A stretch of 64,000 bases of DNA, taken from Escherichia coli. Lineage in GTDB: Bacteria; Pseudomonadota; Gammaproteobacteria; Enterobacterales; Enterobacteriaceae. Position 1 is the stretch's first letter. Every line of letters begins with the position of its first letter. Positions 1 through 47,000 of this stretch are shown here, piece after piece. Both the position numbers and the translations under genes were made by a program. The DNA lies in NCBI RefSeq assembly GCF_965641715.1, contig NZ_OZ282453.1. One strand, 5' to 3'. The notes under the pieces are model-generated. The model saw only the letters and a list, made by a program, of their open reading frames with translations, did not search any database and was not told where the DNA came from.

Positions 1-2288
1 CCACAACACGAAAATTTAAAACCGTTATCACCGATACGGGTGCAAAAAAATTAGCTCAGGCAGCCGCGCCAGATGGTAAGCCTGTCCGCCTGACTCATAT
101 GGCCGTGGGCGACGGTGGCGGCACGTTGCCCACACCAGACAGTAAGCAGACCCGTCTGGTGCATGAGGTGTGGCGACACACTGTTAATCGCGTCATCCTG
201 GACGCAACACATCAGAACCGCATTATTGCGGAGCTGGTTATTCCTCCAGAAACGGGCGGATTCTGGATCCGGGAAATTGGTGTGTTTGATGAGCACGGCG
301 ATTTAATCGCAGTAGGCAATACTGCCGAAAGTTACAAGCCAACCGTTGCCGAAGGGTCAGGACGTGCACAAACATTTCGCACCATTCTGACCGTATCCAG
401 CACTGCCACCGTGGCGCTTACCGTGGATAACACCATGGTAATGGCCACAGTGGATTACGTGGATGACAAACTGAAAGAGCATGAACACTCACGACGTCAC
501 CCGGACGCCTCGCTGACCGCAAAAGGCTTTGTTCAACTTAGCAGCGCCACTAACAGCACGTCTGAAACGCTTGCGGCAACGCCAAAGGCTGTTAAGGCGG
601 CATATGACCTGGCTAATGGCAAATACACCGCACAGGACGCTACCACTGCGCGAAAAGGGATAGTTCAGCTCAGTAGCGCCACCAACAGCACGTCTGAAAC
701 GCAGGCTGCAACGCCGAAAGCAGTAAAGGCCGCGTATGACCTTGCTAACGCAAAATATACCGCTCAGGACGCCACGACGGCACAAAAAGGGATAGTCCAG
801 CTCAGTAGTGCCACCAACAGCACGTCTGAAACACTGGCCGCGACATCGAAAGCGGTTAAGGCGGTAATGGATGAAACGAACAAGAAAGCGCCCTTAAACA
901 GTCCTGCGCTGACCGGAACGCCAACAACGCCAACTGCGCGACAGGGAACGAATAATACCCAAATCGCAAGCACGGCTTTCGTTATGGCTGCGATTGCCGC
1001 CCTTGTAGATTCGTCACCTGACGCACTGAATACGCTGAACGAGTTAGCGGCGGCGCTGGGAAACGACCCGAATTTTGCGACCACCATGACTAACGCGCTT
1101 GCGGGTAAGCAACCGAAAGATGCCACCCTGACGGCGCTGGCCGGGCTTGCTACTGCGGCAGACAGGTTTCCGTATTTTACGGGGAATGATGTCGCCAGCC
1201 TGGCAACCCTGACAAAAGTCGGGCGGGATATTCTTGCGAAATCGACCGTTGCTGCCGTTATCGAATACCTCGGTTTACAGGAAACGGTAAACAGGGCTGG
1301 TAACGCCGTGCAAAAAAATGGCGATACTTTGTCCGGTGGGCTTACTTTTGAAAATGACTCAATCCTTGCCTGGATTCGAAATACTGACTGGGCGAAGATT
1401 GGATTTAAAAATGATGCCGATGGTGACACTGATTCATACATGTGGTTTGAGACAGGCGACAACGGCAATGAATATTTCAAATGGAGAAGCAAACAAAGCA
1501 CCACAACAAAAGACCTGATGAATCTTAAATGGGATGCTTTGTATGTTCTTGTTAAAGCTCTTTTCAGCAGTGAAGTAAAAATATCGACAGTCAATGCACT
1601 GAGGATATTTAATTCATCTTTTGGTGCCATTTTTCGCCGTTCTGAAGAATGCCTGCATATCATCCCTACACGAGAGAATGAGGGGGAAAATGGTAATATA
1701 GGGCCACTACGTCCCTTTACGCTTAATCTCAGAACTGGCCGCATAACTATGGGGCATGGTCTGGATGTTACAGGAGATATAACAACTAACGCCTGGGTGT
1801 ATGCAAACAGGTTTGCTATTAATAGTGGCTCAACCTCATGGATTGATATGCGAAACCAGAATGTCATTTTTGGTAGAAACGCAGTATCAACAAGTTCTGC
1901 GCAGGCTTTGTTAAGACAAGACCATGCAGAACGCAAATTTTTTGTCGGTGGACTTGGTAACTACCAGTTTGGTTTTTACATGATTAATAACTCAAGGACA
2001 GCCAATGGCACCGATGGTCAGGCGTACATGGACAATAACGGTAACTGGCTTTGTGGCTCGCAAGTTATTCCTGGCAACTATGGCAATTTTGATTCCAGAT
2101 ATGTGAGAGATGTTCGCCTGGGTACGCGAGTTGTTCAATTGATGGCGCGTGGTGGTCGTTATGAAAAAGCCGGACACGCAATTACCGGATTAAGAATCAT
2201 TGGTGAAGTAGATGGCGATGATGAAGCCATCTTCAGGCCAATACAAAAATACATCAATGGCACATGGTATAACGTCGCACAGGTGTAA
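1..2288 (+). CDS. Phage tail fibre protein (P2 gpH-like), 5' end outside window
   Basis: Reading frame is open from base 3 to stop at 2286-2288. N-terminal MAVGDGGG and AKGFVQLSSATNSTSETLAATPKAVK motifs are typical of P2 H-type fibres. C-terminus ends in INGTWYN-like motif. Confidence 0.85.
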   Translation, partial: TTRKFKTVITDTGAKKLAQAAAPDGKPVRLTHMAVGDGGGTLPTPDSKQTRLVHEVWRHTVNRVILDATHQNRIIAELVIPPETGGFWIREIGVFDEHGDLIAVGNTAESYKPTVAEGSGRAQTFRTILTVSSTATVALTVDNTMVMATVDYVDDKLKEHEHSRRHPDASLTAKGFVQLSSATNSTSETLAATPKAVKAAYDLANGKYTAQDATTARKGIVQLSSATNSTSETQAATPKAVKAAYDLANAKYTAQDATTAQKGIVQLSSATNSTSETLAATSKAVKAVMDETNKKAPLNSPALTGTPTTPTARQGTNNTQIASTAFVMAAIAALVDSSPDALNTLNELAAALGNDPNFATTMTNALAGKQPKDATLTALAGLATAADRFPYFTGNDVASLATLTKVGRDILAKSTVAAVIEYLGLQETVNRAGNAVQKNGDTLSGGLTFENDSILAWIRNTDWAKIGFKNDADGDTDSYMWFETGDNGNEYFKWRSKQSTTTKDLMNLKWDALYVLVKALFSSEVKISTVNALRIFNSSFGAIFRRSEECLHIIPTRENEGENGNIGPLRPFTLNLRTGRITMGHGLDVTGDITTNAWVYANRFAINSGSTSWIDMRNQNVIFGRNAVSTSSAQALLRQDHAERKFFVGGLGNYQFGFYMINNSRTANGTDGQAYMDNNGNWLCGSQVIPGNYGNFDSRYVRDVRLGTRVVQLMARGGRYEKAGHAITGLRIIGEVDGDDEAIFRPIQKYINGTWYNVAQV
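522..870 (+). repeat. Tandem in-frame coding repeats in tail fibre (two full 132-138 nt units plus a partial third)
   Basis: Peptide (G/I)VQLSSATNSTSET(L/Q)AATPKAVKAAYDLAN(G/A)KYTAQDATTA(R/Q)KG occurs twice in full and a third time partially. Nucleotide copies differ at synonymous positions. Confidence 0.8.
1258..1283. other. gix/pix-like invertase crossover site (left), inside tail fibre gene
   Basis: ttatcgaatacctcggtttacaggaa is an imperfect inverted copy of 4323-4348 and resembles the Mu gix site as recalled. Confidence 0.7.
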
Positions 2289-2819
2289 ATGATGCAGCAT
2301 TTAAAAAATATTAAGTCTGGAAATCCTAAAACGAAAGAACAATATCAGCTAACAAAGAATTTTGATGTTATCTGGTTATGGTCCGAAGACGATAAAAACT
2401 GGTATGAGGAAGTGAAAAACTTTCAGCCAGACACAATAAAGATTGTTTACGATGCAAATAATATTATTGTCGCCATCACTAAAGATGCCTCCACGCTTAA
2501 CCCTGAAGGTTTTAGCGTCGTTGAGGTTCCTGATATTACAGCCAACCGCCGCGCTGATGATTCAGGAAAGTGGATGTTTAAGGATGGAGCTGTAGTTAAA
2601 CGGATTTATACGGCAGACGAACAGCAACAACAAGGCGAATCACAAAAGGCCGCATTGCTTTCCGAAGCTGAATCAGTCATCCAGCCGCTGGAACGCGCTG
2701 TCAGGCTGAATATGGCAACAGACGAGGAACGCACACGACTGGAAGCATGGGAACGCTACAGTGTTCTGGTCAGCCGTGTGGATACGGCAAATCCTGAATG
2801 GCCACAAAAGCCTGAATAA
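2289..2819 (+). CDS. Tail fibre assembly chaperone (gpG/Tfa-like), cassette A
   Basis: 176 aa ORF directly after fibre stop. N-terminus [23 protein letters not shown] and C-terminal region match the Tfa family; paralogous to 2848-3381. Confidence 0.85.
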
Positions 2820-2826
2820 AAATTAA

Positions 2827-2842
2827 GGCCCGCGATCGGGCC
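2827..2842. terminator. Short GC hairpin between convergent tfa genes
   Basis: ggcccg-cgat-cgggcc palindrome; T-rich flank on the minus-strand side only. Confidence 0.4.
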
Positions 2843-2847
2843 TTGTC

Positions 2848-3381
2848 TCATTCAGGTTGTTCGGGAAATGTTACTGGCAGGCTGGAGGTGTCTGTAGATT
2901 CGACTTTCTGCGCATAGAGCATCCACTCGGTTAATTTTTGTTTATTCTCGTCGGAAATGATGCCCAGCCGTAGCTGTGAGTCCCATAGCTGGGTTTTATC
3001 CCTAACGAGCTGTAGCAGGCTTTGCTTTTCATTTTCCGCCTGCTGCCTCTGCTCTTCCTCGGTATAAGTTCGCTTTACCACTACGCCATCTTTGAACATC
3101 CATTTACCAGAAATATCAGCCCGGCGATTTGCTGTAATATCAGGAACCTCAACGACGCTTGCGCCTTCTGGATTAATTGCTGAAACATCCTTTTCAATAC
3201 AAATAATAACGTTGTTGTGGTCATAGACCATTTTCAACGTATCAGGCTGAAAGTTCTTTTGTTCCTCATACCAGTTTTTCCCATCCTCTGTATAAAGCCA
3301 TTTGATGTTAAATTGTTTCGTTAGCTGGTATTGCTCTTTTGTTTTAGGGTTGCCAGCAGTAATATTTTTTAAGTGCATCAT
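2848..3381 (-). CDS. Tail fibre assembly chaperone, alternative cassette B
   Basis: 177 aa minus-strand paralogue of the 2289-2819 product ([22 protein letters not shown]...), convergent with it. Confidence 0.8.
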
Positions 3382-3383
3382 AA

Positions 3384-4322
3384 TTAAATACTCCCCGCGT
3401 TATACCACGTCCCATTAATGCAATACTGAATTGGCCTTGCCTGAGTTGTATCAATTAATTCATCACGGTTTCCGTTAACTGAACCCGTAACGACATAACC
3501 TGACCTGTCAGACCAGCCGGGACCATTCCATGTCTGAACAGATGACAGACCGCCAAGGCGAATACCTGTAATAAACCTTGAGTTACATTCTGCCTGCGTG
3601 TATGCACCAACATCTCCCGCAGAGGGTTTGCGGGTCGTGGTGTAAAACTCTGACCAGTTAGCCTCAAATCCATAACCATCACGCGCTGAACGATAAAAAA
3701 TACCGCCGTTCCTGTAATTCACGCGGAACTGTACAGCAGGGCAGCTCCCCGTATTCATATTGAAGTGGAGGATTAATGTCGATGCACCGCTGATATCTGC
3801 ATCATAAACACCGCTATTCCAGTTCCAGCCAACAGCTTTATCATTTGCAACCCTGCTTCCTGTTTGCCCTAAAGCAAATGCAGGCTGCTGGTTTTTCGTG
3901 TTGTAGTCTCTTCGCCAGCCAGGAGCATAAGCATCACCATGATTAATATAAGTGAATTGAGCGTTAGAGGTGCCGCCTCCGGTGGAAGTGCTTGGTGTTG
4001 TTACACGGATGGTCATGGCACCTTTATTACCCATAACCTCAATAACGCAACCTGCAAGATGAATAGTTCCACAGCCAGTATCGGTAATAATTTTATTATT
4101 GCCGTATGACCATGAACATTTGCACATCCAGTATGGGTGATTGAATGCCCCTTGAGAATCCAGCCATTCAATCAATTGTGCCGTTGTCCAGTTCCCTGCC
4201 CCTGTACTAATAGCACTGTGAAAAGCGCGACATGCACCAATATTTTTTGTGAAGGTATCTTTTCCTGGAATATCTGCGCCGTTCTGGTTTTTCTGTAATG
4301 CGCCAGAAGCCTGATTTACCGT
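3384..4322 (-). CDS. Promoterless alternative tail-fibre C-terminal cassette, expressed only after inversion
   Basis: Minus-strand frame is open from the crossover site at 4323 to a stop at 3384. It begins ...[12 protein letters not shown], matching the [11 protein letters not shown] junction of the plus-strand fibre, and ends [11 protein letters not shown]. It has no start codon of its own upstream. Confidence 0.75.
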
Positions 4323-4348
4323 TTCTTGTAAACCGAGGTTTTAGATAA
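4323..4348. other. gix/pix-like invertase crossover site (right)
   Basis: ttcttgtaaaccgaggttttagataa, inverted partner of 1258-1283, immediately upstream of the invertase gene. Confidence 0.7.
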
Positions 4349-4402
4349 TGGCCGTTTCTGACCTGCATGGCATGATTTACGCTTTTGGACGGGAGATTCA
4401 GC

Positions 4403-4990
4403 GTGCTGATTGGCTATGTAAGGGTATCAACAAATGACCAGAATACAGACCTGCAACGAAACGCTCTTGTTTGTGCAGGATGTGAACAAATATTTGAAGA
4501 TAAATTAAGCGGGACAAAGACAGACCGACCGGGATTAAAACGCGCTTTAAAGCGTCTTCAAAAAGGTGACACGCTGGTTGTCTGGAAACTGGATCGCCTC
4601 GGGCGAAGCATGAAACATCTGATTTCTCTCGTCGGGGAACTACGGGAGCGAGGGATTAATTTTCGCAGTCTGACCGACAGCATAGATACATCTTCTCCAA
4701 TGGGGCGTTTTTTCTTCCACGTGATGGGTGCCCTGGCTGAAATGGAACGTGAATTAATTGTTGAACGTACACTGGCCGGACTGGCAGCAGCGCGCGCACG
4801 GGGGCGCACAGGCGGACGTCGCCCGAAGCTGACAAAAGAACAGCATGAGCAAATAGCAAGGCTGATTAAAAACGGTCACGACAGAAAACAACTGGCAATA
4901 ATTTACGGCATTGGTACATCGACGATTTATCGTTACCACCCCGCAGGAGAATCAAGCGGAGCAATAGAGAAGAGTCAGAAAACAAAATAA
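4403..4990 (+). CDS. Serine DNA invertase (Pin/Gin/Hin/Cin family)
   Basis: N-terminus (V)LIGYVRVSTNDQNTDLQRNAL with catalytic serine context and a C-terminal helix-turn-helix region. Probable GTG start at 4403; the ORF track starts at a TTG at 4385. Confidence 0.9.
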   Translation: MLIGYVRVSTNDQNTDLQRNALVCAGCEQIFEDKLSGTKTDRPGLKRALKRLQKGDTLVVWKLDRLGRSMKHLISLVGELRERGINFRSLTDSIDTSSPMGRFFFHVMGALAEMERELIVERTLAGLAAARARGRTGGRRPKLTKEQHEQIARLIKNGHDRKQLAIIYGIGTSTIYRYHPAGESSGAIEKSQKTK

Positions 4991-5018
4991 CCGCTAATCT
5001 GACCATTAGCGGTTTTTG
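4990..5018. terminator. Bidirectional intrinsic terminator between invertase and tail gene U
   Basis: accgctaat-ctgacc-attagcggt hairpin followed by TTTTT; the reverse strand is also T-rich. Confidence 0.65.
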
Positions 5019-5025
5019 TGTTAAA

Positions 5026-5520
5026 TCAGAACAGCCCTTTAACTGAACTGGCCGCGCTGTTAAGAGATGATGTCACCTTATCTTTGAAGCCGGACAGCAT
5101 ATCGCTGAACGATGAGGATTGCAGGCGCTCCCGCAAATCCTCATCACAGCGTTCAAGGGTCAGTGAAAATTCTATCTTTTTCGCCTTACCGTAGCGATCA
5201 AACTCGGAACGGGTCGTATTCGTTCCGGTCAGGACATACATGCCGTAAATCTGCCCGACACCATCAATCAGAGGCCAGGGGCGTCCTGTATATGCCTGCG
5301 TGGTCAGCAACGAAAGCGACACTTCGCCACCTGTAATTTCAGGATAAAGCACACCAGAAAGAACGATGCGATCATCGCCTGCCCCGATATACTGCCAGCT
5401 TGCTGAACGGTTAACGCGTTCATTTTTCACATGCCGCCAGCTTTTGTTTTGCTGTAACTGCTGATGCGGCAACGTGCGCAGCTCAAAAACAAACATGCCG
5501 TAGATCATCATCATGGCCAT
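5026..5520 (-). CDS. Phage tail protein (P2 gpU-like)
   Basis: 164 aa ORF immediately downstream of the tape-measure gene on the minus strand; size and position match gpU. Exact start among the N-terminal Met codons is uncertain. Confidence 0.7.
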   Translation of the reverse strand: MAMMMIYGMFVFELRTLPHQQLQQNKSWRHVKNERVNRSASWQYIGAGDDRIVLSGVLYPEITGGEVSLSLLTTQAYTGRPWPLIDGVGQIYGMYVLTGTNTTRSEFDRYGKAKKIEFSLTLERCDEDLRERLQSSSFSDMLSGFKDKVTSSLNSAASSVKGLF

Positions 5521-5526
5521 GACTCC

Positions 5527-8334
5527 TCAATCTTTATCGTAAAAACTGCCACGCCCGGCACGGGCGCGCCGTTCCATTTCTGCCCTGACCATTTCACCGA
5601 CCAGTTTCGCCAGTTCGCGGGGATTCTGCGTAACAACGTTATGCAGATGAACATGAATTTCACCACCAAATCCGGAGGCAACAGGCTCCCGGTTACGGGA
5701 AGTTACAGGAACTGATGCCACTGGAGATCGTATGGCCTCCGCCACCGGGCGGGAGCTGGCCGCAACAACAGGGACCAGCGCCGGAGGCAGCGGAGCCGGG
5801 ACCACGGGGGTGATATTAATTGCGGGGGCAGGCTTACTGACCTGCGCAATCTTCCGCTCCTGCCACTCCCCACGAACAGCAAGTGCGCGGGGCAGGTTCT
5901 TAAAGACAATATCGCCGGGGCCAATGCGTTTTTTCGTCTCATCAACCAGCTTACCTGTGTTATCAGCAATTTTGCTGAGTCTGCGTAGCGTCCCGGTATT
6001 GCTGTCTGTGAGCGGTTTATTGTCTTTGGGGTTATCACCTCCGGTGCCATTGCCATTTTCCACAGGCTTCGGCGGATTGATTTTCGCCAGGTCCCCCTGA
6101 AGCAAGGCAACCTTGTCCTGAAGAATGGCCGCACGCTGTGCGTCTTCGATTTTCTTTCTCGCCCTTTCCGCTTCATCCGGAAGCACACCGAGTTTTTCAA
6201 GTATCCACGCCAGCGTATCCAGCAGCATTTTTGCAGGCGTCAGAACAAGCTGTAGCGCGCCACCAAGAACGTTACCGAATATCTCGCCAGCACTGGTACA
6301 TTTATCCAGCGTTTCCTTGCTGGACTCCATCGGTGACAGCAGCGATTTAAACCAGTTAAAGAGCTGAATAATCCCATCGCGCACGACATCAAAAACAGGA
6401 CCAAACCGTTCAAAGGTTTCGCGCAACGGAGCCAGCCGTTCCATAATTCCACTGAACACCCCGGCATAAAACGCCTTGATGGGTTCCCAGTATTTCCAGA
6501 TGAGAACCGCCGCAGCCACAAACGCGGCAACAATCAATCCGACCGGACTGAACAGCGCCCCGATAGCGCCACCCAGCAACGAGATGGAACCTGTTACCAT
6601 TCCCCATAGTGCTGGCAGCACCCTGACGACATTCATTGATCCGGTCAGGAGAGAAAAACCAAGACGTAACGTGGCCAGTTTCCCGTGAAGCACGCCAATA
6701 ACCAGCGACAACGAGCCAATCGTTGCAGTCATTGCCAGCAACGCACCGCCTGCTATCAGTAGCTGGCGCGTCAGTGCCGGATGGGCCTGCGCCAGCGCCG
6801 TCACCCTTGATACCACCCGCGTGAGCCACTGCGTGACAGAACGCAGCGGGCCGTCAATCAGATCTGCAATGCGGATGCGCAACCCTTCCCATGCACTGCC
6901 GAGTGATTTCAGATCGCCGTCAAGGTTGTTGGCCATAACCTTTGCTGTGCGTTCAGCCTCACCGCGCGCGCCTTCAAGTTCTTTTCTCAGTTTAGGTAAG
7001 GAACCGTCACCCGCTGCATCAACGAGCGCCATAAACGATGTGAAAGCCTCTTCTCCGGCAATGTCCTTAAAGAACGATACCCGGTCAACTTCCCCGTATT
7101 TGCGGGTGGCTTTATAAAGGTCGGCCAGCACATCCTCCATCGGGCGCATTTTGCCGTTCGCGTCAGAGACTGCCACACCAAGCTCTTTCAGCGCCTCTGC
7201 TGCCGCCTTTGGCGGTGATGCAAGACGAGCCAGGCTGGCACGCATTGCCGTCCCGGCATCACTTCCCCTGATACCCATATTCGCCAGCACGCCCGCCATC
7301 GCTGCGGCCTGCTCCAGCGATATTCCCAGCTTGCCCGCCACCGGACCTGCATATTTCATGGTTTCGCCCAGTGCGCGAAGGTCAGTGTTGGTACGGGTAA
7401 ACGCTGCGGTGAGCGTGTCACCGACCCGGTCCATCTGGTCAGCAGAAAGGCCGAACTGCGTCAGGATATTTGAGCCAATATCTGCCGTCTCGCCGAGATC
7501 CATACCGCCAGCCGTTGCCATGCTCAGCACTCCGGGGAGCGCAGCCTGAATGGCCTGCGGTGTGAAGCCAGCCATTGCAAGAAATGCCTGCCCACTGGCG
7601 GCATCGCCTGCGGTGAACTGCGTTTCAGAGCCAAGTTTTAACGCCTGCTCACGCAGCGCCTTAAACTGCGGGCTGTTCTGGTCGATTCGCGTCAGCGCCT
7701 GAACGCGGGACATCTCTTTGCCGAACCCGATCGCGGGCTGCAAAAAACGCCCGGCAGCATAGCCGCCCGCCGCTGCCGCACCAATTGCCAGCGCACCACC
7801 TGTTTTCAGTTTTCCCGCGGTTTCCTGCGCGCGCGAATACCGCTCACGCGCCCGCGTTACACGCGCAAGCGCCTGCCGTTCGCGTTCAAGCTGGTTGTTG
7901 TACTGTTCGGTGCGTCTGATGGCCTGCTGGATGGTGTTATCGCTGCCTGTCAGGGAAATGCCGTGGCGTTTCAGCTCTCCGCCAAGTTCCCGCATTTTCT
8001 GAATTTCCCGTGTGCGCGATTCATTCAGGCGTTCAAGCCGGGTGCTTAACTGCTGCATCAGCTTTTGTTGTTTTTCGCTGAGCACTGTACCCGTGCGTTG
8101 TAACTGATTAAGAGCGTTAAGCTGGCGTCGTGCTTTCAATATGCCAGCATCCGCTTTACTGACAGCGTCACGGGCGCGCTCAAATGAACGCGCCTGACGC
8201 TCGAGATTTTTGATCGCCCCCTGCGTTCGCTGGATGGAGTCACCAAACTGCCCCATCAGGCGGCGGGCGTTTTCGGCAGGCCGGGTCAGCCTGTCAACGG
8301 CGCTGAAAGCGACCCGGATATCAAGAGTCTTCAT
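5527..8334 (-). CDS. Tail tape-measure protein (P2 gpT-like)
   Basis: About 935 aa, Ala/Gly-rich with predicted coiled-coil and membrane-like segments, downstream of the E/E' pair. ATG start at 8334 preferred over the GTG at 8370. Confidence 0.85.
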   Translation of the reverse strand: MKTLDIRVAFSAVDRLTRPAENARRLMGQFGDSIQRTQGAIKNLERQARSFERARDAVSKADAGILKARRQLNALNQLQRTGTVLSEKQQKLMQQLSTRLERLNESRTREIQKMRELGGELKRHGISLTGSDNTIQQAIRRTEQYNNQLERERQALARVTRARERYSRAQETAGKLKTGGALAIGAAAAGGYAAGRFLQPAIGFGKEMSRVQALTRIDQNSPQFKALREQALKLGSETQFTAGDAASGQAFLAMAGFTPQAIQAALPGVLSMATAGGMDLGETADIGSNILTQFGLSADQMDRVGDTLTAAFTRTNTDLRALGETMKYAGPVAGKLGISLEQAAAMAGVLANMGIRGSDAGTAMRASLARLASPPKAAAEALKELGVAVSDANGKMRPMEDVLADLYKATRKYGEVDRVSFFKDIAGEEAFTSFMALVDAAGDGSLPKLRKELEGARGEAERTAKVMANNLDGDLKSLGSAWEGLRIRIADLIDGPLRSVTQWLTRVVSRVTALAQAHPALTRQLLIAGGALLAMTATIGSLSLVIGVLHGKLATLRLGFSLLTGSMNVVRVLPALWGMVTGSISLLGGAIGALFSPVGLIVAAFVAAAVLIWKYWEPIKAFYAGVFSGIMERLAPLRETFERFGPVFDVVRDGIIQLFNWFKSLLSPMESSKETLDKCTSAGEIFGNVLGGALQLVLTPAKMLLDTLAWILEKLGVLPDEAERARKKIEDAQRAAILQDKVALLQGDLAKINPPKPVENGNGTGGDNPKDNKPLTDSNTGTLRRLSKIADNTGKLVDETKKRIGPGDIVFKNLPRALAVRGEWQERKIAQVSKPAPAINITPVVPAPLPPALVPVVAASSRPVAEAIRSPVASVPVTSRNREPVASGFGGEIHVHLHNVVTQNPRELAKLVGEMVRAEMERRARAGRGSFYDKD

Positions 8335-8538
8335 TGTCTGTATTCCCGCTGCGAAGTGCCGCCCGCTCACGCCAGCTAACCACTTCGCCGGGAGTCATCA
8401 TGAAGATTTCGGCGGGCGACCAGTTAAAAATGGCGGCAATATCCGCCACAAAGTCTTCTATGTGCTCAAAGCACACAACCGTGATCAGGCTTCCGTCGCC
8501 TGTTCGTTCTTCCCGCCAGAGTCCGCACCGCTCAAAAA
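8321..8538 (-). CDS. E' extension frame of tail chaperone, reached by programmed -1 frameshift from E
   Basis: A 78-codon frame overlaps the 3' end of E and ends at the tape-measure start. It is entered at the minus-strand TTTTTTG heptamer. Confidence 0.6.
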
Positions 8539-8850
8539 ATTTACGGCAACCACACATAACTGAATAAAGTCACGGGATGCCATTTTTTTGATCGTCACTT
8601 CATCCAGTCGCGGTGATGTCACGCGTGACAGCAGCGTAAACATGGATTCCGCTTTCAGATTCAGCACATCAGACAGCGACAAATCTCGCAGAGATCCAGC
8701 CTGCTCAATAGCCCCGGTGATCTCCACATACGTGATTTTTTCGCCGCCTCGCTCAATTGGTTGGGTAAGTTTTACGCCACGCTCACTGGTTTCTTTCACA
8801 GTGTCAGTAACTACCGTGTTTTCGGTATCGATGTTTTTCGTCTCTTTCAT
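8485..8850 (-). CDS. Tail assembly chaperone (P2 gpE-like)
   Basis: Small ORF between the tail tube and tape-measure genes, with an overlapping -1 frame. True start may be internal. Confidence 0.7.
   Translation of the reverse strand: MKETKNIDTENTVVTDTVKETSERGVKLTQPIERGGEKITYVEITGAIEQAGSLRDLSLSDVLNLKAESMFTLLSRVTSPRLDEVTIKKMASRDFIQLCVVAVNFLSGADSGGKNEQATEA
8532..8538 (-). other. Candidate -1 frameshift slippery heptamer TTTTTTG (E/E')
   Basis: Plus strand reads caaaaaa at 8532-8538; on the minus strand the E frame reads gta aat ttt ttg agc. Same arrangement as the P2 E/E' recoding site. Confidence 0.6.
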
Positions 8851-8904
8851 CAGGAAACTCCTTTCAGTCAGAGGCGACGCACTGCGCCGCCTGCATATTA
8901 CTTA

Positions 8905-9417
8905 TCAGCCAAGCCCAAGCGCGGAACGGATACGGTCAGGCACAATGTCCTTGCCGTCCTTCCGGTAGATGAAGTTCAGCAGGTCAATCTCCCACAACGG
9001 GCGATCGTTAACACTCAGCTTGTAGTAGGTGTTTTTAATGGCGTAAGTGTGTGATGTGGCTTCGCCCTGTTTGGCTTCCCCCATATCAATTTCCGTCACA
9101 CGTCCGCGCATTTCGACTTCATACAGGTCGCTTTCTGCATCGGTGTAGTATTCACCCGCAAAACGCAGCAGCGTGCCGTCAATCGTGCCGCCATACTTAA
9201 GGAACAGCTCACGAACTGCGCCCCCCATGACAAAGCTCGCATCAAGCGCGGAGTCGTCCAGACCGAGATCAATACTTACCGCACCCATCATGCCGCCACC
9301 CCGGTAGCTGTCGGTTTTGCGCGTCAGCTTAGGCAGAGTGACGGACGTCACCTTACCCACTTCGTTTTCACCATCCACAAACAGCGTAAAAAAGCGAAGA
9401 TGTTTTGGCACAGCCAT
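8905..9417 (-). CDS. Tail tube protein (P2 gpFII-like)
   Basis: 170 aa, start overlaps the sheath stop (shared A at 9417); position and size match FII. Confidence 0.85.
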   Translation of the reverse strand: MAVPKHLRFFTLFVDGENEVGKVTSVTLPKLTRKTDSYRGGGMMGAVSIDLGLDDSALDASFVMGGAVRELFLKYGGTIDGTLLRFAGEYYTDAESDLYEVEMRGRVTEIDMGEAKQGEATSHTYAIKNTYYKLSVNDRPLWEIDLLNFIYRKDGKDIVPDRIRSALGLG

Positions 9418-10601
9418 CAGGCACCTCCCAGCACCGCAAATGCGGGTTCAAAGTATTCATCAGTAAACGTCTGGTAAAGCTCCATGTCTTCCAGTGGCGG
9501 AACGGGCGTATATTTGTAGCGAATACGCACGCGCCCCTGACGTAAATCCGTGGTGCTGTTATCCACCACGTCATACCAGCACTCCGCGCCAATCAGTTTC
9601 CCGGCAGTAACCAGTGAATCCAGTTTTGCCCTGATGGCACTGATAACATCCTTCACGTTCGCAGGCGTCAGTGGACTGTCGATGGTTTCAAACTGCGCTT
9701 CCGCAATTGAATCAGCCAGCACCTGTGCGGTTCGGGTATACACCTCAAAGATGTAGGCGTTCGTTTCCGGTGTGCGGTTGCCCCAGAAGCGGAACCCGTT
9801 GCGACGAATAATGGTCGTGATTTCTTTGTTGTTGAGGCTGTTGGCATCGCTGTCTTCGGCCTGCAACGACCAGAACACATGCTTCGACATCCCCAGCACA
9901 TTTTTAACCGGAACGTTGGACAGTGATTTGTGCCACCCCTGCTCATGGTCAATGTACGCACGAAGGCCGCACGCATAGGCAGGTGCGGGGAACGTTTCGT
10001 TTTTGCCACTTTTCGGGTTGTAGGCGATGAAGTCCGGCCATAAGAGCATCACCTCACGTTCGTTGAATTTCTGGCGGTAGGTAATCGCCTCAGCCATCGT
10101 GTTACAGCCGTGACATGAGGCATACACAAACGCGCGCAGTTTACCCGCAATCACGCACAGGGATTTTGTTACAGCCTCCGTGTCCAGCTCCGGCGCGGCC
10201 AGAATACGCGGACGGTATCCGATGCTTTCATCCTGCTCTGCAACAAGCAGCGCATACATCCCCGTATAGCTGCCGTCAGATTCAGAACCACCGATAACCA
10301 GTTGATCCTGCGTCTTTCCGTCTTCTTCTTTGTGTTCAGCCACGCGAACGACGATCACCTTTGTGCTCACCTGGTCTGCGATGGCCTTAAGCGCACGATA
10401 AAGCGTCCCCGTTGTCCCGCATTTTCCCAGCACGTCATTGACGCGGGTCAGCAGTGTGGGCTTGTTCAGCGGGAACAGCTTCGCGTCCGCATCATCCGCC
10501 GTTGCCACGATACCGATAACGCTGGAATCAACATCGTTAATCGCTGTTACCAGGTCGGTATTTTCCGTAACACGGGCACCATGAAAACGAGTTTCACTCA
10601 T
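9417..10601 (-). CDS. Contractile tail sheath protein (P2 gpFI-like)
   Basis: 394 aa, MSETRFHGARVTENTDLVTAINDVD...; sheath family by size and position upstream of the tube gene. Confidence 0.85.
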   Translation of the reverse strand: MSETRFHGARVTENTDLVTAINDVDSSVIGIVATADDADAKLFPLNKPTLLTRVNDVLGKCGTTGTLYRALKAIADQVSTKVIVVRVAEHKEEDGKTQDQLVIGGSESDGSYTGMYALLVAEQDESIGYRPRILAAPELDTEAVTKSLCVIAGKLRAFVYASCHGCNTMAEAITYRQKFNEREVMLLWPDFIAYNPKSGKNETFPAPAYACGLRAYIDHEQGWHKSLSNVPVKNVLGMSKHVFWSLQAEDSDANSLNNKEITTIIRRNGFRFWGNRTPETNAYIFEVYTRTAQVLADSIAEAQFETIDSPLTPANVKDVISAIRAKLDSLVTAGKLIGAECWYDVVDNSTTDLRQGRVRIRYKYTPVPPLEDMELYQTFTDEYFEPAFAVLGGA

Positions 10602-10758
10602 AGCTTCAGCCCCTTGTATCCGTTAAATGATTCGGCAACAATCATCACCCACCACGCGCGTAATCTCACCCCTGCGCCGTTCTCCCGCCACGGCGACAAC
10701 AAAAAGCAGTAACCCCCTCCGCACGCACATGCGACCATGCCGCACAGGGAGGGAGCAG

Positions 10759-11868
10759 ATGACCGACACCACCATGCAATTGCTCAGTCAGGGCACAGAC
10801 CCCGTGAAAATGCCGGATTTTGATATTCTCGCGGAGGGTAAAACGCTGTCAGGCGTGGCAGAGCGCCTGATGAGCCTGTCAGTGACCGACAACCGGGGAT
10901 TTGAAGCGGACCAGCTCACCATCACGCTGGATGATGCGGATGGTCAGTTGCAGCTACCGCCACGGGGCGCGCGCCTGACGGTTCTCATTGGCTGGAAAGG
11001 AGAACCGCTGACAGAAAAAGGCACTTACATTGTTGATGAAATCGCTCACGAAGGACCGCCGGACAGGCTGACTGTTTCAGCCAGAAGCGCAGATTTTCGG
11101 GATGAATTTAACGTTAAACGTGAGGTGTCCTGGCATGATGTGACCGTTGAGCGTGTGGTATCCGCCATCGCTCATCGGTACGGTCTGAAACCGCAAATCA
11201 GCGAAATGCTGATGGATATCGAAATCGACCACGCCGACCAGACCGAAGAAAGCGACATGTCCTTTCTTACGCGCATGGCGGAAATGCTGGGCGCAATCAC
11301 CACGGTAAAAAGCGGTAATCTGTTATTCATTATGCCAGGCGGTGGCGTGAACGCACAGGGCCAGCCGTTGCCCTCGTTCGCCATCACGCGCAGCAGTGGC
11401 GATCGCCATCAGTTCCGCATTGCTGACCGCGAAGCGTATACGGGGGTACGCGCTTACTGGCTTGATCTTAATTACGGGAAAAAGAAAAAAGTCAGCGTGA
11501 AACGCCGCAAACCGCCAAAACCCAAAAAGGAGAAAAGCAGCAGCCGTGAAGGTGATTATATGGAAGGTGCGGAAGGCAATGTGTTTGTGTTACGCAAGAC
11601 TTATCAGAACGAGCAGGCAGCAAGACGCGCAGCGGCGGCAAAGTGGCAGCAACTACAACGCGGAGCCGCATCATTCTCCATCACGCTGACACGTGGACGA
11701 GCAGAACTCTACCCCGAAATGCATGGCACGGTAACAGGATTTAAAAGCGAGATTGATAATCAGGACTGGATTATTGCGAAAGCCGAGCACACCATTGATA
11801 ACAGTGGCTTTACCACGCAGCTTGAGCTTGAAGCAAAAATCCCGGAATGGATAGCAGAAACAGAGTGA
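10759..11868 (+). CDS. Phage late gene D protein (P2 gpD-like tail protein)
   Basis: 369 aa from the ATG preceded by GGGAGGGAG. Lysine-rich central linker and overall layout match gpD. Divergent from the sheath gene. Confidence 0.8.
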   Translation: MTDTTMQLLSQGTDPVKMPDFDILAEGKTLSGVAERLMSLSVTDNRGFEADQLTITLDDADGQLQLPPRGARLTVLIGWKGEPLTEKGTYIVDEIAHEGPPDRLTVSARSADFRDEFNVKREVSWHDVTVERVVSAIAHRYGLKPQISEMLMDIEIDHADQTEESDMSFLTRMAEMLGAITTVKSGNLLFIMPGGGVNAQGQPLPSFAITRSSGDRHQFRIADREAYTGVRAYWLDLNYGKKKKVSVKRRKPPKPKKEKSSSREGDYMEGAEGNVFVLRKTYQNEQAARRAAAAKWQQLQRGAASFSITLTRGRAELYPEMHGTVTGFKSEIDNQDWIIAKAEHTIDNSGFTTQLELEAKIPEWIAETE

Positions 11869-11910
11869 GCAACTTAGAATAGCGGCAGCACCACGTTAAG
11901 GGAGGTCGCT

Positions 11911-12171
11911 ATGTTCCGTTGTCCGCTTTGTGGCGCATCTGCCCGTATCCGCACCAGTCGTCCGGAAAATGATTCAAACACCGTGCGGCAAAAGTATTAC
12001 CAGTGTAACAATCTGGAATGCGGCGTATGCTTCTCAACACTGGAAGCTTTCCATAAATTCACATCGAAACACGCCTCCGGCGTTCACTCTTCAGAAGGTA
12101 TCCCGTGGCATGAGCTGCCAGCTTCACACAGGGGAAACAATCAGATGAGTTTGCCTTTATCTCAGAATTAA
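11911..12171 (+). CDS. ogr: Ogr/Delta-family zinc-finger late transcription activator
   Basis: 86 aa, CPLC...X...CNNLEC four-cysteine pattern, N-terminus MFRCPLCG like P2 Ogr, directly after D. Confidence 0.8.
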   Translation: MFRCPLCGASARIRTSRPENDSNTVRQKYYQCNNLECGVCFSTLEAFHKFTSKHASGVHSSEGIPWHELPASHRGNNQMSLPLSQN

Positions 12172-12259
12172 CAGGCAGAATTGCCGGAGTAACAAAAAAG
12201 CGATAGATTACGCGCGGGTGCCTTTCGGCTGATGGTCGGAGGGAATACCCGAAGGCCAG

Positions 12260-12496
12260 ATGTGGAAAGGCCCCGGAAAACATTTCTGTTTAACCGAGGC
12301 CCTAACACTTCTTACCTTCGCAAGTAGAAGGTTAGCGCCTCTCCTCTCAGGAGACAAGCGTTATGACGCAAATTCCGTTAAAAACCCTGTTACTTTGCAT
12401 AACTGCGGTAGCGATAATCTGGATCCTCCACACATCACCGTGCGAGTTACGATTCAGGTTTGCTGGCACGGAAATTGCGGCATTCTTACTATGTAA
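12260..12496 (+). CDS. mok-like overlapping reading frame of the hok locus
   Basis: 78-codon frame starts 103 nt upstream of hok and overlaps it out of frame, as mok does in hok/sok loci; GAAGG precedes the ATG. Confidence 0.4.
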   Translation: MWKGPGKHFCLTEALTLLTFASRRLAPLLSGDKRYDANSVKNPVTLHNCGSDNLDPPHITVRVTIQVCWHGNCGILTM

Positions 12497-12503
12497 TAAG
12501 TAA
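12363..12503 (+). CDS. Hok/Gef-family type I toxin (small membrane peptide)
   Basis: 46 aa MTQIPLKTLLLCITAVAIIWILHTSPCELRFRFAGTEIAAFLLCNK: hydrophobic helix followed by C-E-L-R-F-R and E-I-A-A-F motifs. AGGAG lies 9 nt upstream. Below the 60-aa cutoff of the ORF track. Confidence 0.75.
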   Translation: MTQIPLKTLLLCITAVAIIWILHTSPCELRFRFAGTEIAAFLLCNK

Positions 12504-12590
12504 GATAACCGCGACGGGGGAGTAATCCCCCGTCAATCGGTTGCTAAGGTTGGTCGAAACGGCATCCTATCTCACAGACATGAACAACAA

Positions 12591-12622
12591 ACCCGCAGCG
12601 TAAAAACTGCGGGTTTTCTTTT
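12591..12622 (+). terminator. Intrinsic terminator downstream of hok
   Basis: acccgcag-cgtaaaaa-ctgcgggt hairpin followed by tttctttttg. Confidence 0.6.
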
Positions 12623-12670
12623 TGCTACCCTCACAAATGAGGGCACCATACATAAGCAATAGGCATAACA

Positions 12671-12710: not shown

Positions 12711-12752
12711 GTTATCATATCGGCAGCAGTAACCACACAAGAGGTGCCGCAA

Positions 12753-12950
12753 ATGACGCAAAATGTACGATGCAAAAATTGCAACAAACTACTTGCCCGC
12801 GCCTCATTTCACTACATTGAAATAAAATGTCCGCGCTGCAAAACACTTAACCAGATAACGAGAGCCATCGAGCACCCCACACACATGAGGAGTTATGACC
12901 GTGGGGATCGCAATCCAGCACCAACCAGCACATACGCCAGAACACACTAA
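12753..12950 (+). CDS. com: Com-like zinc-finger translational regulator (Mu Com family)
   Basis: 65 aa, MTQNVRCKNCNKLLARASFHYIEIKCPRCK..., matching the Mu Com CKNCNKLL...IEI(R/K)CPRCK pattern. AAGAGG RBS; 3' end overlaps the methyltransferase start. Confidence 0.7.
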   Translation: MTQNVRCKNCNKLLARASFHYIEIKCPRCKTLNQITRAIEHPTHMRSYDRGDRNPAPTSTYARTH

Positions 12951-13701
12951 GGTTTATCAGACTGACAATGTCACGCTCTGTTGTGGGAATGCACTGGAAA
13001 TATTGCCGCTGATTGAGCCAGAAAGCATTGATGCCTTAATCACTGACCCGCCTTACAGTTCGGGTGCGACACACAAGGCCGGACGCACCAATCAGGGCAG
13101 CCATGCAAAATATCTGAACGGCGAGAACCTTCACCGCTTTGATGGGTTCGCGGGTGAAAACATGGACGCCCGTTCGTGGGCTTACTGGACACAATTATGG
13201 ATGGCACAGGCACACCGCGCAGTCAGGCCAGGCGGTTATGCCATGGTATTTACTGACTGGCGACAACTACCAGCTTTAACCGATGCGTTTCAGGCCAGTG
13301 GCTTTACATGGCGCGGCATCATTGCGTGGAACAAGGGGAGGGGGTCACGAACACCACATACCGGGTATTTCCGGCATCAGTGCGAATACATCGTCTGGGG
13401 CAGCAAAGGCCATTTAGATAAATCGCCTTCGGGGCCGTTCGACGGCTGCATGACGTACCCGGTTATCCCGTCAAAGAAAATGCACCCGACCGGAAAACCA
13501 GAAGAACTAATGGCGGAACTGGTCAGGACTGTGAATAGTGGCGGAACAGTCCTTGATCCTTTTATGGGGTCAGGGACAACGGGTGTGGCTGCACTGAAAG
13601 CAGGGCGAAAATTTATTGGTATAGAAACCAGTGATCATTATTTTGAGGTAGCAGCGCAGCGGCTTCGGGGGACTATTACCACAACCATTTCGGCTACATA
13701 A
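12895..13701 (+). CDS. DNA methyltransferase, beta-class (N6-adenine or N4-cytosine), no restriction partner in window
   Basis: 268 aa with motif order DPPY before FMGSGTT. No restriction endonuclease nearby. Start overlaps the end of com by 56 nt. Confidence 0.85.
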   Translation: MTVGIAIQHQPAHTPEHTKVYQTDNVTLCCGNALEILPLIEPESIDALITDPPYSSGATHKAGRTNQGSHAKYLNGENLHRFDGFAGENMDARSWAYWTQLWMAQAHRAVRPGGYAMVFTDWRQLPALTDAFQASGFTWRGIIAWNKGRGSRTPHTGYFRHQCEYIVWGSKGHLDKSPSGPFDGCMTYPVIPSKKMHPTGKPEELMAELVRTVNSGGTVLDPFMGSGTTGVAALKAGRKFIGIETSDHYFEVAAQRLRGTITTTISAT

Positions 13702-17044: not shown

Positions 17045-17106
17045 CCTAAAGAATCAAGACGATCCGGTACGCGTGATTTTCTTTTCACATTAATCTGGTC
17101 AATAAC

Positions 17107-17134
17107 CTTGAATAATTGAGGGATGACCTCATTT
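17107..17134 (+). promoter_or_regulatory. Sigma-32 heat-shock promoter of clpB
   Basis: CTTGAA, 14 nt spacer, CCTCATTT (consensus CCCCATnT), about 40 bp upstream of the clpB start. Confidence 0.65.
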
Positions 17135-17173
17135 AATCTCCAGTAGCAACTTTGATCCGTTATGGGAGGAGTT

Positions 17174-19747: not shown

Positions 19748-19752
19748 TGATA

Positions 19753-19780
19753 AAACGAGCCCTTCGGGGCTCGTTTTTGT
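19753..19780 (+). terminator. clpB intrinsic terminator
   Basis: aaacgagccc-ttcg-gggctcgttt followed by TTTGT. Confidence 0.8.
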
Positions 19781-19861
19781 CTATAAGTTAGACGGAAAAG
19801 ACTATATTTAAGATGTTTTGCCTGAAAAATGAGCGAACGATAAAGTTTTTATATTTTTCGC

Positions 19862-19889
19862 TTGTCAGGCCGGAATAACTCCCTATAAT
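19862..19889 (+). promoter_or_regulatory. rrnG P1 promoter
   Basis: TTGTCA, 16 nt spacer, TATAAT, with an A/T-rich UP-like element upstream. Confidence 0.8.
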
Positions 19890-19979
19890 GCGCCACCACT
19901 GACACGGAACAACGGCAAACACGCCGCCGGGTCAGCGGGGTTCTTCTGAGAATCTCAACAGAGAAAAGCAAAAAAATGC

Positions 19980-20007
19980 TTGACTCTGTAGCGGGAAAGC
20001 GTATTAT
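19980..20007 (+). promoter_or_regulatory. rrnG P2 promoter
   Basis: TTGACT, 16 nt spacer, TATTAT. Confidence 0.8.
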
Positions 20008-46997: not shown

Positions 46998-47000
46998 TGA

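What the first reader, a model, noticed from the sequence alone, without database searches (positions are those of the whole stretch)
8321..8850. Candidate programmed -1 frameshift in the tail chaperone pair (E/E')
The minus-strand heptamer TTTTTTG at 8532-8538 lies where the E frame (gta aat ttt ttg agc) can slip into a 78-codon -1 frame that ends just before the tape-measure start. This is the conserved recoding arrangement of P2 E/E' and lambda G/GT. Its intactness suggests the tail module is not heavily decayed.
Basis: partly seen in the sequence, partly recalled or inferred. Interest (0 to 1): 0.25.

Follow-up and report, generated by a model that had tools for sequence, protein, structure and literature searches.

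The report
Known P2-type tail chaperone frameshift site
This is the standard programmed -1 ribosomal frameshift of P2-like phages, which makes a long and a short tail-assembly chaperone from one gene start; it sits intact in a P88-like E. coli prophage, so it is real but ordinary.

Summary
It is phased T_TTT_TTG in the 121-codon E frame (8850..8485). The -1 frame is open from 8569 to the TGA at 8323..8321, 11 nt past the tape-measure ATG (8334).

The heptamer alone is not above chance in the window. Four other results carry the case:
- The virtual fusion (E 1-106 plus 70 -1-frame codons) aligns end to end with P2 E+E' (E=6e-26). The two junctions coincide.
- The -1 part hits Pfam GpE (E=8e-12).
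- All 93 related loci examined keep an in-frame X_XXY_YYZ heptamer at this spot, in eight sequence forms.
- Among relatives, substitutions switch to the third codon position of the -1 frame directly after the heptamer.

The locus is 98% identical to the plaque-forming phage P88 (Xuanwuvirus) and occurs in 1369 of 5426 complete E. coli genomes. The tail genes visible in the window are full length.

One refinement: the site is a decamer, A_AAT_TTT_TTG. The upstream register A_AAT_TTT is the only one kept in a sister clade and belongs to a more slippery class in E. coli.

No stimulatory RNA structure was found. This is already known biology, although public records annotate E' as a separate 51-aa gene.

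The parts
8485..8850 (-). Gene E (tail assembly chaperone, zero frame), 121 aa, ATG 8850, stop TGA 8487-8485
   Evidence: ORF and translation. phrog_103 'tail protein' E=2e-35. Aligns with P2 gpE inside the E+E' BLASTP alignment. Pfam Phage_TAC_7 scores only 17.2 bits against a cut-off of 25, but 12 of 13 aligned relatives match it. 98.3% identical to P88 gp47.
8533..8542 (-). Slippery decamer A_AAT_TTT_TTG.
   Evidence: Sequence and phasing. Positionally homologous to P2's annotated frameshift site. One or both registers are kept in 93 of 93 relatives.
8321..8533 (-). E' extension read in the -1 frame after the slip: 70 codons plus TGA. The predicted fusion E+E' is 176 aa.
   Evidence: Translation. 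PF06528 Phage_P2_GpE E=7.9e-12 at fusion residues 135-170. phrog_1756 E=1e-38 over residues 103-174. Third-position substitution pattern in the -1 frame.
8485..8569 (-). 85-nt zone where the E frame and the open -1 frame overlap. It is the only place a productive slip can occur.
   Evidence: Stop-to-stop frames. It contains only the two adjacent in-frame heptamers.
8321..8476 (-). The 51-aa 'GpE family phage tail protein' CDS as annotated in public records (GTG 8476 start). This is probably an annotation artefact of ignoring the frameshift.
   Evidence: PGAP annotation in E. coli RM10740 and the P88 records. No AGGAGG-like motif lies 5-12 nt upstream. -1-frame selection already begins upstream of 8476, at the heptamer.
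5527..8334 (-). Tape-measure gene T, 935 aa. Its ATG at 8334 overlaps the end of E' by 14 nt.
   Evidence: PF10145 E=2e-58. Same length as P88 gp45 and 97.2% identical.
8905..9417 (-). Tail tube gene FII, directly upstream of E
   Evidence: PF04985 E=7.5e-47. 100% identical to the P88 protein.
9417..10601 (-). Tail sheath gene FI
   Evidence: PF04984, PF22671 and PF17482. 99.2% identical to the P88 protein.
5026..5520 (-). Tail gene U, downstream of T
   Evidence: PF06995 E=1.5e-38. 100% identical to the P88 protein.

Best explanation
Proposed mechanism. Ribosomes translating gene E (8850..8485) of a P88-like (Xuanwuvirus, Peduoviridae) prophage mostly terminate at 8485 and release the 121-aa chaperone gpE. 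A minority slip back one nucleotide on the run A_AAU_UUU_UUG (8542..8533). The P- and A-site tRNAs re-pair in the -1 frame. Those ribosomes then read 70 further codons to the TGA at 8323-8321 and produce a 176-aa fusion, E+E'.

Inferred function, by analogy with P2 E/E+E' and lambda G/GT. The shared E part binds the tape-measure protein T. The rare E' (GpE) domain recruits the tail tube protein. The fixed low ratio of fusion to short form, set by frameshift efficiency, is needed for assembly of a tail of correct length. Neither protein ends up in the virion.

Shown here: the anatomy, the homology, the conservation of the slip site, and -1-frame coding selection beginning at the slip site.

Not shown here: that the fusion is actually made, its frequency, which of the two overlapping heptamers is used, and the protein contacts.
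For: 1. Context. The order is sheath, tube, E, E', tape measure, U, the same as in phage P88.

2. Homology. The -1 part matches PF06528 at E=7.9e-12. The virtual fusion against P2 E+E' gives E=6e-26 with the junctions aligned. The same reconstruction rule reproduces P2's published 91-aa and 142-aa products (PMC3091744).

3. Conservation of slipperiness rather than of sequence. All 13 phage loci, from Xuanwuvirus to Vibrio, Burkholderia, Acidovorax and Mannheimia phages, and all 80 IMG/VR loci carry an in-frame X_XXY_YYZ heptamer at the same or the adjacent codon. The forms are T_TTT_TTG, A_AAT_TTT, C_CCT_TTC, C_CCT_TTT, T_TTT_TTA, T_TTT_TTT and G_GGA_AAG.

4. Position of the -1-frame opening. 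In several relatives the -1 frame opens only at or a few codons before the heptamer: at the heptamer itself in SEN5 and the Shewanella phage, and 9 nt before it in P2.

5. Codon-position diversity in 34 distinct Xuanwuvirus-like sequences (values for codon positions 1/2/3). E-only varies at E-frame position 3 (0.08/0.065/0.232). E'-only varies at -1-frame position 3 (0.049/0.033/0.156). The 45-nt overlap directly after the heptamer also follows the -1 frame (0.161/0.068/0.266), not the E frame.

6. Viability. P88, 98.4% identical here and with the same decamer, forms plaques (PMC5285337).

7. Literature. P2 E' lacks a ribosome-binding site, extends 37 nt back into E, and is expressed by a -1 shift at T6G (PMC3931495, PMC3091744). 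The RefSeq P2 record annotates the join.

8. Motif class. A_AAU_UUU and C_CCU_UUC belong to the H_HH.U_UU.Y class, which is highly frameshift-prone in E. coli (PMC4066793).
Against: There is no direct evidence of the fusion protein for this locus or for P88.

No stimulator was found. The 60 nt downstream fold no better than shuffles (z=+1.19), and no Shine-Dalgarno-like sequence lies 6-17 nt upstream. In reporter assays, heptamers without stimulators shift at well under 1%.

U_UUU_UUG has a 'heterogeneous' A-site codon, a class reported as a poorer shifter in E. coli.

Public annotations treat E' as an independent 51-aa GTG-started gene.

The overlap-zone codon statistics rest on only 15 codons.
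Confidence: 0.9

Rival explanations
1. E' is translated on its own from an internal start: GTG 8476, as annotated by PGAP and in the P88 records, or ATG 8557. The heptamer would then be incidental.
For: Public records annotate a separate 51-aa 'GpE family phage tail protein'. An ATG at 8557 opens a 78-aa ORF.
Against: No Shine-Dalgarno sequence precedes either start. ATG 8557 is not conserved; it is GTG or absent in the sister clade, and in other relatives the -1 frame is closed upstream of the heptamer. -1-frame purifying selection starts at the heptamer, upstream of 8476. An in-frame slippery heptamer is kept in 93 of 93 loci. P2 E' is reported to lack a ribosome-binding site and to be made as a frameshift extension (PMC3931495).
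Confidence: 0.04
2. The frame change is made by RNA polymerase slippage on the T6 run, inserting one extra U into a fraction of transcripts, rather than by the ribosome.
For: The site contains six consecutive T residues, and homopolymer runs can cause transcriptional slippage (general point in PMC4066793).
Against: Relatives keep the recoding arrangement with runs as short as T4 (A_AAT_TTT ATG, 16 loci), T3 (C_CCT_TTC, 14 loci), or none (G_GGA_AAG). These are too short for polymerase slippage, yet they always preserve the X_XXY_YYZ phase required for tandem tRNA re-pairing. From my own knowledge, efficient transcriptional slippage in E. coli needs runs of about 9 or more.
Confidence: 0.04
3. 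The two frames are a decayed single gene, that is, a frameshift mutation in a dead prophage with no recoding involved.
For: The element is a prophage. The related Sakai prophage Sp13 is known to be defective (PMC2669165).
Against: The same two-frame layout is present in viable phages P88 and P2 and in every relative examined. Both frames are under purifying selection. The surrounding tail genes are intact.
Confidence: 0.01

Closest known systems
Bacteriophage P2 E / E+E' (programmed -1 frameshift at TTTTTTG in the FETUD tail operon; Christie et al. 2002, cited in PMC3091744 and PMC3931495)
   Same: Homologous proteins: fusion against fusion gives 31% identity, E=6e-26. The GpE domain is present in both. 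The position between tube and tape-measure genes is the same. The T_TTT_TTG heptamer sits at the aligned codon pair (F-L). E' overlaps the T start in both. Neither has a downstream RNA structure (PMC3091744).
   Different: gpE here is 121 aa against 91 aa, with about 20 extra N-terminal residues. The fusion is 176 aa against 142 aa, with a linker about 10 residues longer that carries an ER.GDG motif. The E/-1 overlap is 85 nt against 37 nt. A second in-frame heptamer, A_AAT_TTT, lies one codon upstream and is absent from P2 (GGT TTT TTG). P2 has a Shine-Dalgarno-like AAGGTGG shortly upstream of its heptamer, and this locus does not. Gene D and ogr are on the opposite strand here, so the P2 FETUD operon unit is not preserved.
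Escherichia phage P88 and other Xuanwuvirus members (500465-2, PhiR44_2, Chuche); E. coli O157 Sakai prophage Sp13
   Same: This is essentially the same element. Identity is 98.4% over the E/E' region and 95.1% over 12.6 kb of collinear sequence, with the same decamer. The element is present in 1369 of 5426 complete E. coli genomes.
   Different: Nothing functional differs. In those records E' is annotated as a separate small CDS, and the P88 paper does not mention a frameshift. A sister clade at about 87% identity (Citrobacter phage Shae_phiSM, phages 503458 and 520873) has TTG changed to ATG and keeps only A_AAT_TTT.
Phage lambda G / GT tail assembly chaperones (-1 shift at G_GGA_AAG; Levin 1993; Xu, Hendrix and Duda 2004, 2013, 2014, as summarised in PMC5009743)
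   Same: The logic is the same. Two overlapping ORFs lie between the major tail (tube) gene and the tape-measure gene. The long form is made by a low-frequency -1 shift. The short-to-long ratio is important for tail assembly, and neither protein is in the virion.
   Different: No detectable sequence similarity: no lambda-type family appeared in the Pfam or PHROG scans. The heptamer differs, and this is a myovirus (contractile tail) rather than a siphovirus. This is an analogy of mechanism, not family membership.

Membership tests
P2-type E / E+E' tail assembly chaperone frameshift pair (Peduoviridae) | The gene pair lies between the tail tube gene (FII) and the tape-measure gene (T). | tested here: met
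   Tube is at 9417..8905, E at 8850..8485, E' runs to 8321, and T starts at 8334. The order is the same in P88 and P2.
P2-type E / E+E' tail assembly chaperone frameshift pair (Peduoviridae) | The second ORF is in the -1 frame relative to E, overlaps E's 3' end, and runs into the start of T. | tested here: met
   The -1 frame is open over 8569..8321. It overlaps E by 85 nt and T by 14 nt. All 13 compared loci show the same -1 relation.
P2-type E / E+E' tail assembly chaperone frameshift pair (Peduoviridae) | An in-frame X_XXY_YYZ slippery heptamer (T_TTT_TTG in P2) lies inside the overlap at the position homologous to P2's mapped site. | tested here: met
   T_TTT_TTG is at 8539..8533. The junctions align in BLASTP and in the 13-sequence alignment. 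The site is conserved in 93 of 93 loci.
P2-type E / E+E' tail assembly chaperone frameshift pair (Peduoviridae) | The -1-frame part carries the GpE domain (Pfam PF06528). | tested here: met
   44.9 bits against a cut-off of 23, E=7.9e-12. All 13 of 13 aligned relatives match. phrog_1756 gives E=1e-38.
P2-type E / E+E' tail assembly chaperone frameshift pair (Peduoviridae) | The zero-frame part is homologous to P2 gpE. | tested here: met
   The BLASTP alignment with P2 E+E' covers fusion residues 23-106 against P2 residues 4-85. phrog_103 gives E=2e-35.
P2-type E / E+E' tail assembly chaperone frameshift pair (Peduoviridae) | The fusion protein is actually produced by a -1 shift and is essential for tail assembly. 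| not testable with these tools
   This is known for P2 only through the literature (PMC3091744, PMC3931495; RefSeq join). It needs a reporter assay, mass spectrometry or genetics for this locus.
Pfam PF10109 Phage_TAC_7 (tail assembly chaperones E, 41, 14) | The whole-protein score reaches the gathering threshold of 25 bits. | tested here: inconclusive
   The window's gpE scores 17.2 bits (E=0.0054), below the cut-off, although the match spans profile positions 2-78 of 79. 12 of 13 aligned relatives match at E<=0.01, the best at 1.7e-16.
Lambda G/GT-type tail assembly chaperones | Sequence homology to lambda gpG/gpT families. | tested here: not met
   No such family was found in the Pfam, PHROGs or NCBIfam scans. 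The resemblance is functional and architectural only.
Lambda G/GT-type tail assembly chaperones | Overlapping ORFs upstream of the tape-measure gene are joined by a low-frequency -1 frameshift. | tested here: met
   The architecture is met. The frequency was not measured.

The most novel reading that the evidence does not exclude
In the P88/Xuanwuvirus lineage the recoding signal may be an extended decamer, A_AAU_UUU_UUG. The main slip would occur in the upstream register A_AAU_UUU, one codon earlier than in P2. Alternatively, both registers are used, or E-, P- and A-site tRNAs all re-pair. The lysogen would then make two fusion isoforms that differ at the junction (..NFFER.. against ..NFLER..). 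In this reading the doubled motif compensates for the absence of any RNA or Shine-Dalgarno stimulator. Three observations support it. Sister clades keep only the upstream register (A_AAT_TTT ATG, C_CCT_TTC). One otherwise window-like contig, L033, has the single TTG-to-ATG change. H_HH.U_UU.Y motifs out-perform U_UUU_UUG-type motifs in E. coli.
Probability: 0.4. Interest if true: 0.2.

Novelty: already known. Interest (0 to 1): 0.1.

Why it matters
The scientific weight is small. This is the textbook tail-chaperone frameshift of P2-like phages, in an element that is 98% identical to a sequenced phage and present in a quarter of complete E. coli genomes.

Its practical value is for annotation. 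PGAP and the phage records call E' a free-standing 51-aa gene, whereas the evidence favours a 176-aa E+E' fusion joined at 8533.

It also shows that the visible tail module of this prophage is intact. The comparative series (T_TTT_TTG, A_AAT_TTT, C_CCT_TTC, T_TTT_TTT, G_GGA_AAG at one homologous spot) is a tidy example of selection for slipperiness rather than for sequence. It raises a minor testable question about which register is used.

Tried and rejected
- Counting TTTTTTG in the window gave 22 copies against 19.9 expected. The motif alone carries no information.
- NCBIfam gave no hit for gpE or the fusion.
- A PDB sequence search with the 13-sequence profile found no relative; the best hit was E=0.79 to RctB, which is noise.
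- Downstream stimulatory RNA: the 60-nt window folds worse than shuffles (z=+1.19). The 100-nt window reaches z=-1.96 only because of a 9-bp hairpin at 8478..8458. That hairpin is 55 nt from the slip site and beyond the E stop, too far to act as a -1 stimulator. The P2 and Citrobacter phage Shae regions also show nothing.
- An upstream Shine-Dalgarno-like stimulator was sought by eye and none was found.
- I first suspected that D and ogr on the opposite strand (10759..12171) reflected an inversion that broke the tail operon. This was rejected because P88 has the same layout.
- A window-wide scan for other heptamers followed by long -1 ORFs flagged 38371/38380 and 36815. These are shadow ORFs or ordinary neighbouring genes; for example, the -1 frame at 38380 appears to be the real gene.
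- Christie et al. 2002 (PMC135442) is not held in the library. Its content is cited second-hand, and the figure of about 10% efficiency is from my memory only.
Full report
**What is in the sequence**

On the minus strand the window carries the following genes in order:

| Gene | Coordinates | Size / evidence |
|---|---|---|
| Tail sheath | 10601..9417 | Pfam sheath domains |
| Tail tube | 9417..8905 | PF04985 |
| E | 8850..8485 | 121 codons, ATG start, AAGGAG Shine-Dalgarno sequence upstream |
| Tape measure T | 8334..5527 | 935 aa, PF10145 |
| gpU homologue | 5520..5026 | PF06995 |

It is phased T_TTT_TTG in the E frame.

The -1 frame is open from 8569 to a TGA at 8323..8321. The ORF tool lists it as 78 aa from an ATG at 8557. 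A ribosome slipping at the heptamer would read 70 codons of it. E' ends 11 nt after the tape-measure ATG, not before it, giving a 14-nt overlap. P2 has an 8-nt overlap of the same kind.

**Is it more than chance?**

The motif alone is not. TTTTTTG occurs 22 times in the window against 19.9 expected. In-frame X_XXY_YYZ heptamers occur at 0.0023 per codon in the window's long ORFs, which gives about a 6% chance of one in a 28-codon overlap. The open -1 run after such heptamers has a median of 14 codons, against 70 here. The case therefore rests on homology and comparative evidence.

**Homology**

- I built the virtual fusion by the rule 'zero frame through YYZ, then -1 frame from Z'. Applied to P2, this rule reproduces the published 91-aa E and 142-aa E+E' (PMC3091744).
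- The window's fusion is 176 aa. Its -1 part matches Pfam PF06528 (Phage_P2_GpE) at 44.9 bits against a cut-off of 23, and phrog_1756 at E=1e-38.
- The E part matches phrog_103 at E=2e-35. It matches Pfam Phage_TAC_7 only weakly, at 17.2 bits against a cut-off of 25. Twelve of 13 aligned relatives match that family.
- BLASTP of the fusion against P2 E+E' aligns residues 23-172 with residues 4-141 (31% identity, E=6e-26). The window's NFL|E junction sits on P2's GFL|V junction. The RefSeq P2 record annotates that position as the site of the -1 frameshift.

**Identity of the element**

The E/E' region is 98.4% identical to Escherichia phage P88 (Xuanwuvirus, Peduoviridae). Window 1..12623 is collinear with P88 22569..35188 at 95.1% identity. 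P88 was induced from a lysogen and forms plaques (PMC5285337).

The region is found in 1369 of 5426 complete E. coli genomes, including O157 Sakai prophage Sp13. Sheath, tube, E, E', T, U and D are full length, without internal stops, and 96-100% identical to the P88 proteins.

The window begins inside the prophage, within the tail-fibre gene, so the head and baseplate genes cannot be assessed.

**Comparative test of the recoding site**

I examined 12 other phage loci plus the window. They span Xuanwuvirus, Reipivirus, Senquatrovirus, Serratia, Shewanella, Yersinia, Vibrio, Burkholderia, Mannheimia and Acidovorax phages and P2. I also examined 80 IMG/VR loci recovered with the fusion alignment.

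In every one, the GpE-domain ORF is in the -1 frame relative to E. Every overlap also contains an in-frame X_XXY_YYZ heptamer at the same or the adjacent codon.

Counts of slippery-site forms among the 80 IMG/VR loci:

| Form | Loci |
|---|---|
| T_TTT_TTG alone | 23 |
| A_AAT_TTT + T_TTT_TTG (the window's form) | 17 |
| A_AAT_TTT alone (TTG changed to ATG) | 16 |
| C_CCT_TTC | 14 |
| C_CCT_TTT + T_TTT_TTG | 7 |
| T_TTT_TTA | 2 |
| One further T-run variant | 1 |

Among the named phages, T_TTT_TTT occurs in the Vibrio phage and Burkholderia phage ST79, and G_GGA_AAG in the Mannheimia phage. The sequence changes but slipperiness and phase do not, which is the signature of selection on recoding.

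In SEN5 and the Shewanella phage the -1 frame opens exactly at the heptamer. In P2 it opens 9 nt before it.

**Which frame is read after the heptamer**

I measured mean pairwise diversity by codon position in 34 distinct Xuanwuvirus-like sequences:

| Segment | Frame | Position 1 | Position 2 | Position 3 |
|---|---|---|---|---|
| E-only | E frame | 0.08 | 0.065 | 0.232 |
| E'-only | -1 frame | 0.049 | 0.033 | 0.156 |
| 45-nt overlap after the heptamer | -1 frame | 0.161 | 0.068 | 0.266 |
| 45-nt overlap after the heptamer | E frame | 0.068 | 0.266 | 0.161 |

In the overlap, read in the E frame, position 2 would be the most variable, which is not a coding pattern. Purifying selection on the -1 frame therefore begins at the slip site, upstream of the GTG at 8476 that PGAP and the P88 records use as the start of a separate 51-aa 'GpE family' gene.

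Neither that GTG nor the ATG at 8557 has a Shine-Dalgarno sequence, and the ATG is not conserved. The overlap sample is small, at 15 codons.

**Mechanism**

The most likely mechanism is tandem -1 slippage of P- and A-site tRNAs, producing a minor E+E' fusion alongside the major gpE.

No stimulator was found. The 60 nt downstream fold no better than shuffled sequence (z=+1.19). P2 and the Citrobacter phage Shae relative are equally unstructured, in line with the literature for P2-like phages (PMC3091744). No Shine-Dalgarno-like element lies upstream.

The function is inferred from P2 and from lambda G/GT: the E part binds the tape measure, and the E' domain recruits the tube protein (PMC5009743). 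It was not tested here.

The window's site is a decamer, A_AAT_TTT_TTG (8542..8533), with two in-frame heptamers.

- A sister Xuanwuvirus clade at about 87% identity keeps only the upstream register, A_AAT_TTT ATG. So does one otherwise window-like contig, L033. Reipivirus keeps C_CCT_TTC in that same upstream register.
- A systematic E. coli study places H_HH.U_UU.Y motifs among the most efficient and finds heterogeneous A-site codons such as UUG to be poorer shifters (PMC4066793).

The principal slip here may therefore occur one codon upstream of the P2 position, giving ..NFFER.. rather than ..NFLER.., or both registers may be used. This remains an inference.

**Rivals**

- Independent initiation of E' is disfavoured by the points above (about 0.04).
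- Transcriptional slippage on T6 is disfavoured because relatives with T4, T3 or no T run keep the arrangement and the tRNA-re-pairing phase (about 0.04).
- A decayed pseudogene is excluded by conservation in viable phages and by selection on both frames (about 0.01).

**Comparison with what is known, and verdict**

This is a member of the P2 E/E+E' family. All sequence-testable defining features are met, and only production of the fusion is untested. It works like lambda G/GT without being homologous to it.

The conserved frameshift in P2-like phages is established and is routinely predicted for new members (PMC3091744, PMC3931495). The finding is correct but already known. What remains of interest is the mis-annotation of E' in public records and the double-register slippery site. 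Interest is scored at 0.1.

Noticed in passing
window 1254-4352, with the invertase gene at 4385-4990 (+): There is an invertible tail-fibre segment of the Mu G / P1 C type. 65-nt inverted repeats at 1254-1318 and 4288-4352 (77% complementary) bracket about 3 kb. That segment holds two oppositely oriented sets of tail-fibre C-terminus plus tail-fibre-assembly genes: 99-2288 and 2289-2819 on +, and 3384-4175 and 2848-3381 on -. A Hin/Gin-type serine invertase lies next to it (PF00239, E=1.5e-50). The layout is the same in P88.
   Followed up: partly
window 10759-11868 (+) and 11911-12171 (+): The gpD homologue (PF05954) and the ogr/Delta zinc-finger activator are on the strand opposite to sheath-tube-E-T-U. 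They diverge from the sheath gene, unlike P2's single FETUD-ogr transcription unit. I first took this for an inversion, but phage P88 has the same order, so it is the normal Xuanwuvirus layout. The D ORF is 369 aa from ATG 10759 against 366 aa in P88.
   Followed up: yes
window 12363-12503 (+): A 46-aa Hok/Gef-family toxin ORF (PF01848, E=2.5e-8) lies at the right end of the prophage. P88 annotates it as 'MokW-like host killing'. No Sok-type antisense RNA reached the Rfam threshold.
   Followed up: partly
window 12744-12950 (+) and 12895-13701 (+): Just outside the P88-collinear part, which ends at 12623, there is a Mu Com-like zinc-ribbon ORF (PF10122, E=1e-11). It overlaps by 56 nt the start of an N6/N4 DNA methyltransferase (PF01555, E=3e-33). 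The arrangement resembles Mu com/mom translational control, but with a methylase. E. coli RM10740 carries different genes at this position.
   Followed up: partly
window 8458-8478 (-): A 9-bp hairpin (UUGUGUGCU-UUG-AGCACAUAG, two G-U pairs) lies inside the E' coding sequence, just after the E stop codon and 55 nt downstream of the slip site. It drives the only mildly low folding z-score, -1.96 for the 100-nt window. It is too far away to stimulate the frameshift, and its conservation was not checked.
   Followed up: no
L016 (P2) 865-878 and L010 (Yersinia phage 201.16) 759-772: P2 and the Yersinia phage carry a Shine-Dalgarno-like GGTAAGGTG just upstream of their T_TTT_TTG heptamer (GGT AAG GTG GTC GGT TTT TTG). 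The window's locus has nothing comparable (TGT GTG GTT GCC GTA AAT TTT TTG). Whether this acts as a dnaX-type upstream stimulator in P2 was not examined.
   Followed up: no
window 17055-25198 and 43256-59922: The rest of the window is E. coli chromosome. It contains RyfD sRNA (17055-17193), a complete rRNA operon with tRNA-Glu (20189-25198), the rseC antisense AsrC, rncO, OhsC and GlmY. The prophage's right end therefore lies about 4.4 kb from RyfD and 7.6 kb from the rRNA operon.
   Followed up: no
window 38371-38386 (+) and 36815-36821 (+): A scan for other in-frame slippery heptamers followed by long -1 ORFs flagged T_TTA_AAC and T_TTT_TTG at 38371-38386 and T_TTT_TTG at 36815. At least the first pair lies in a shadow ORF (37475-38410) antisense to a 444-aa ORF, and the '-1 frame' there (38209-39066) looks like the real gene. 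These are chance hits, not recoding candidates.
   Followed up: partly
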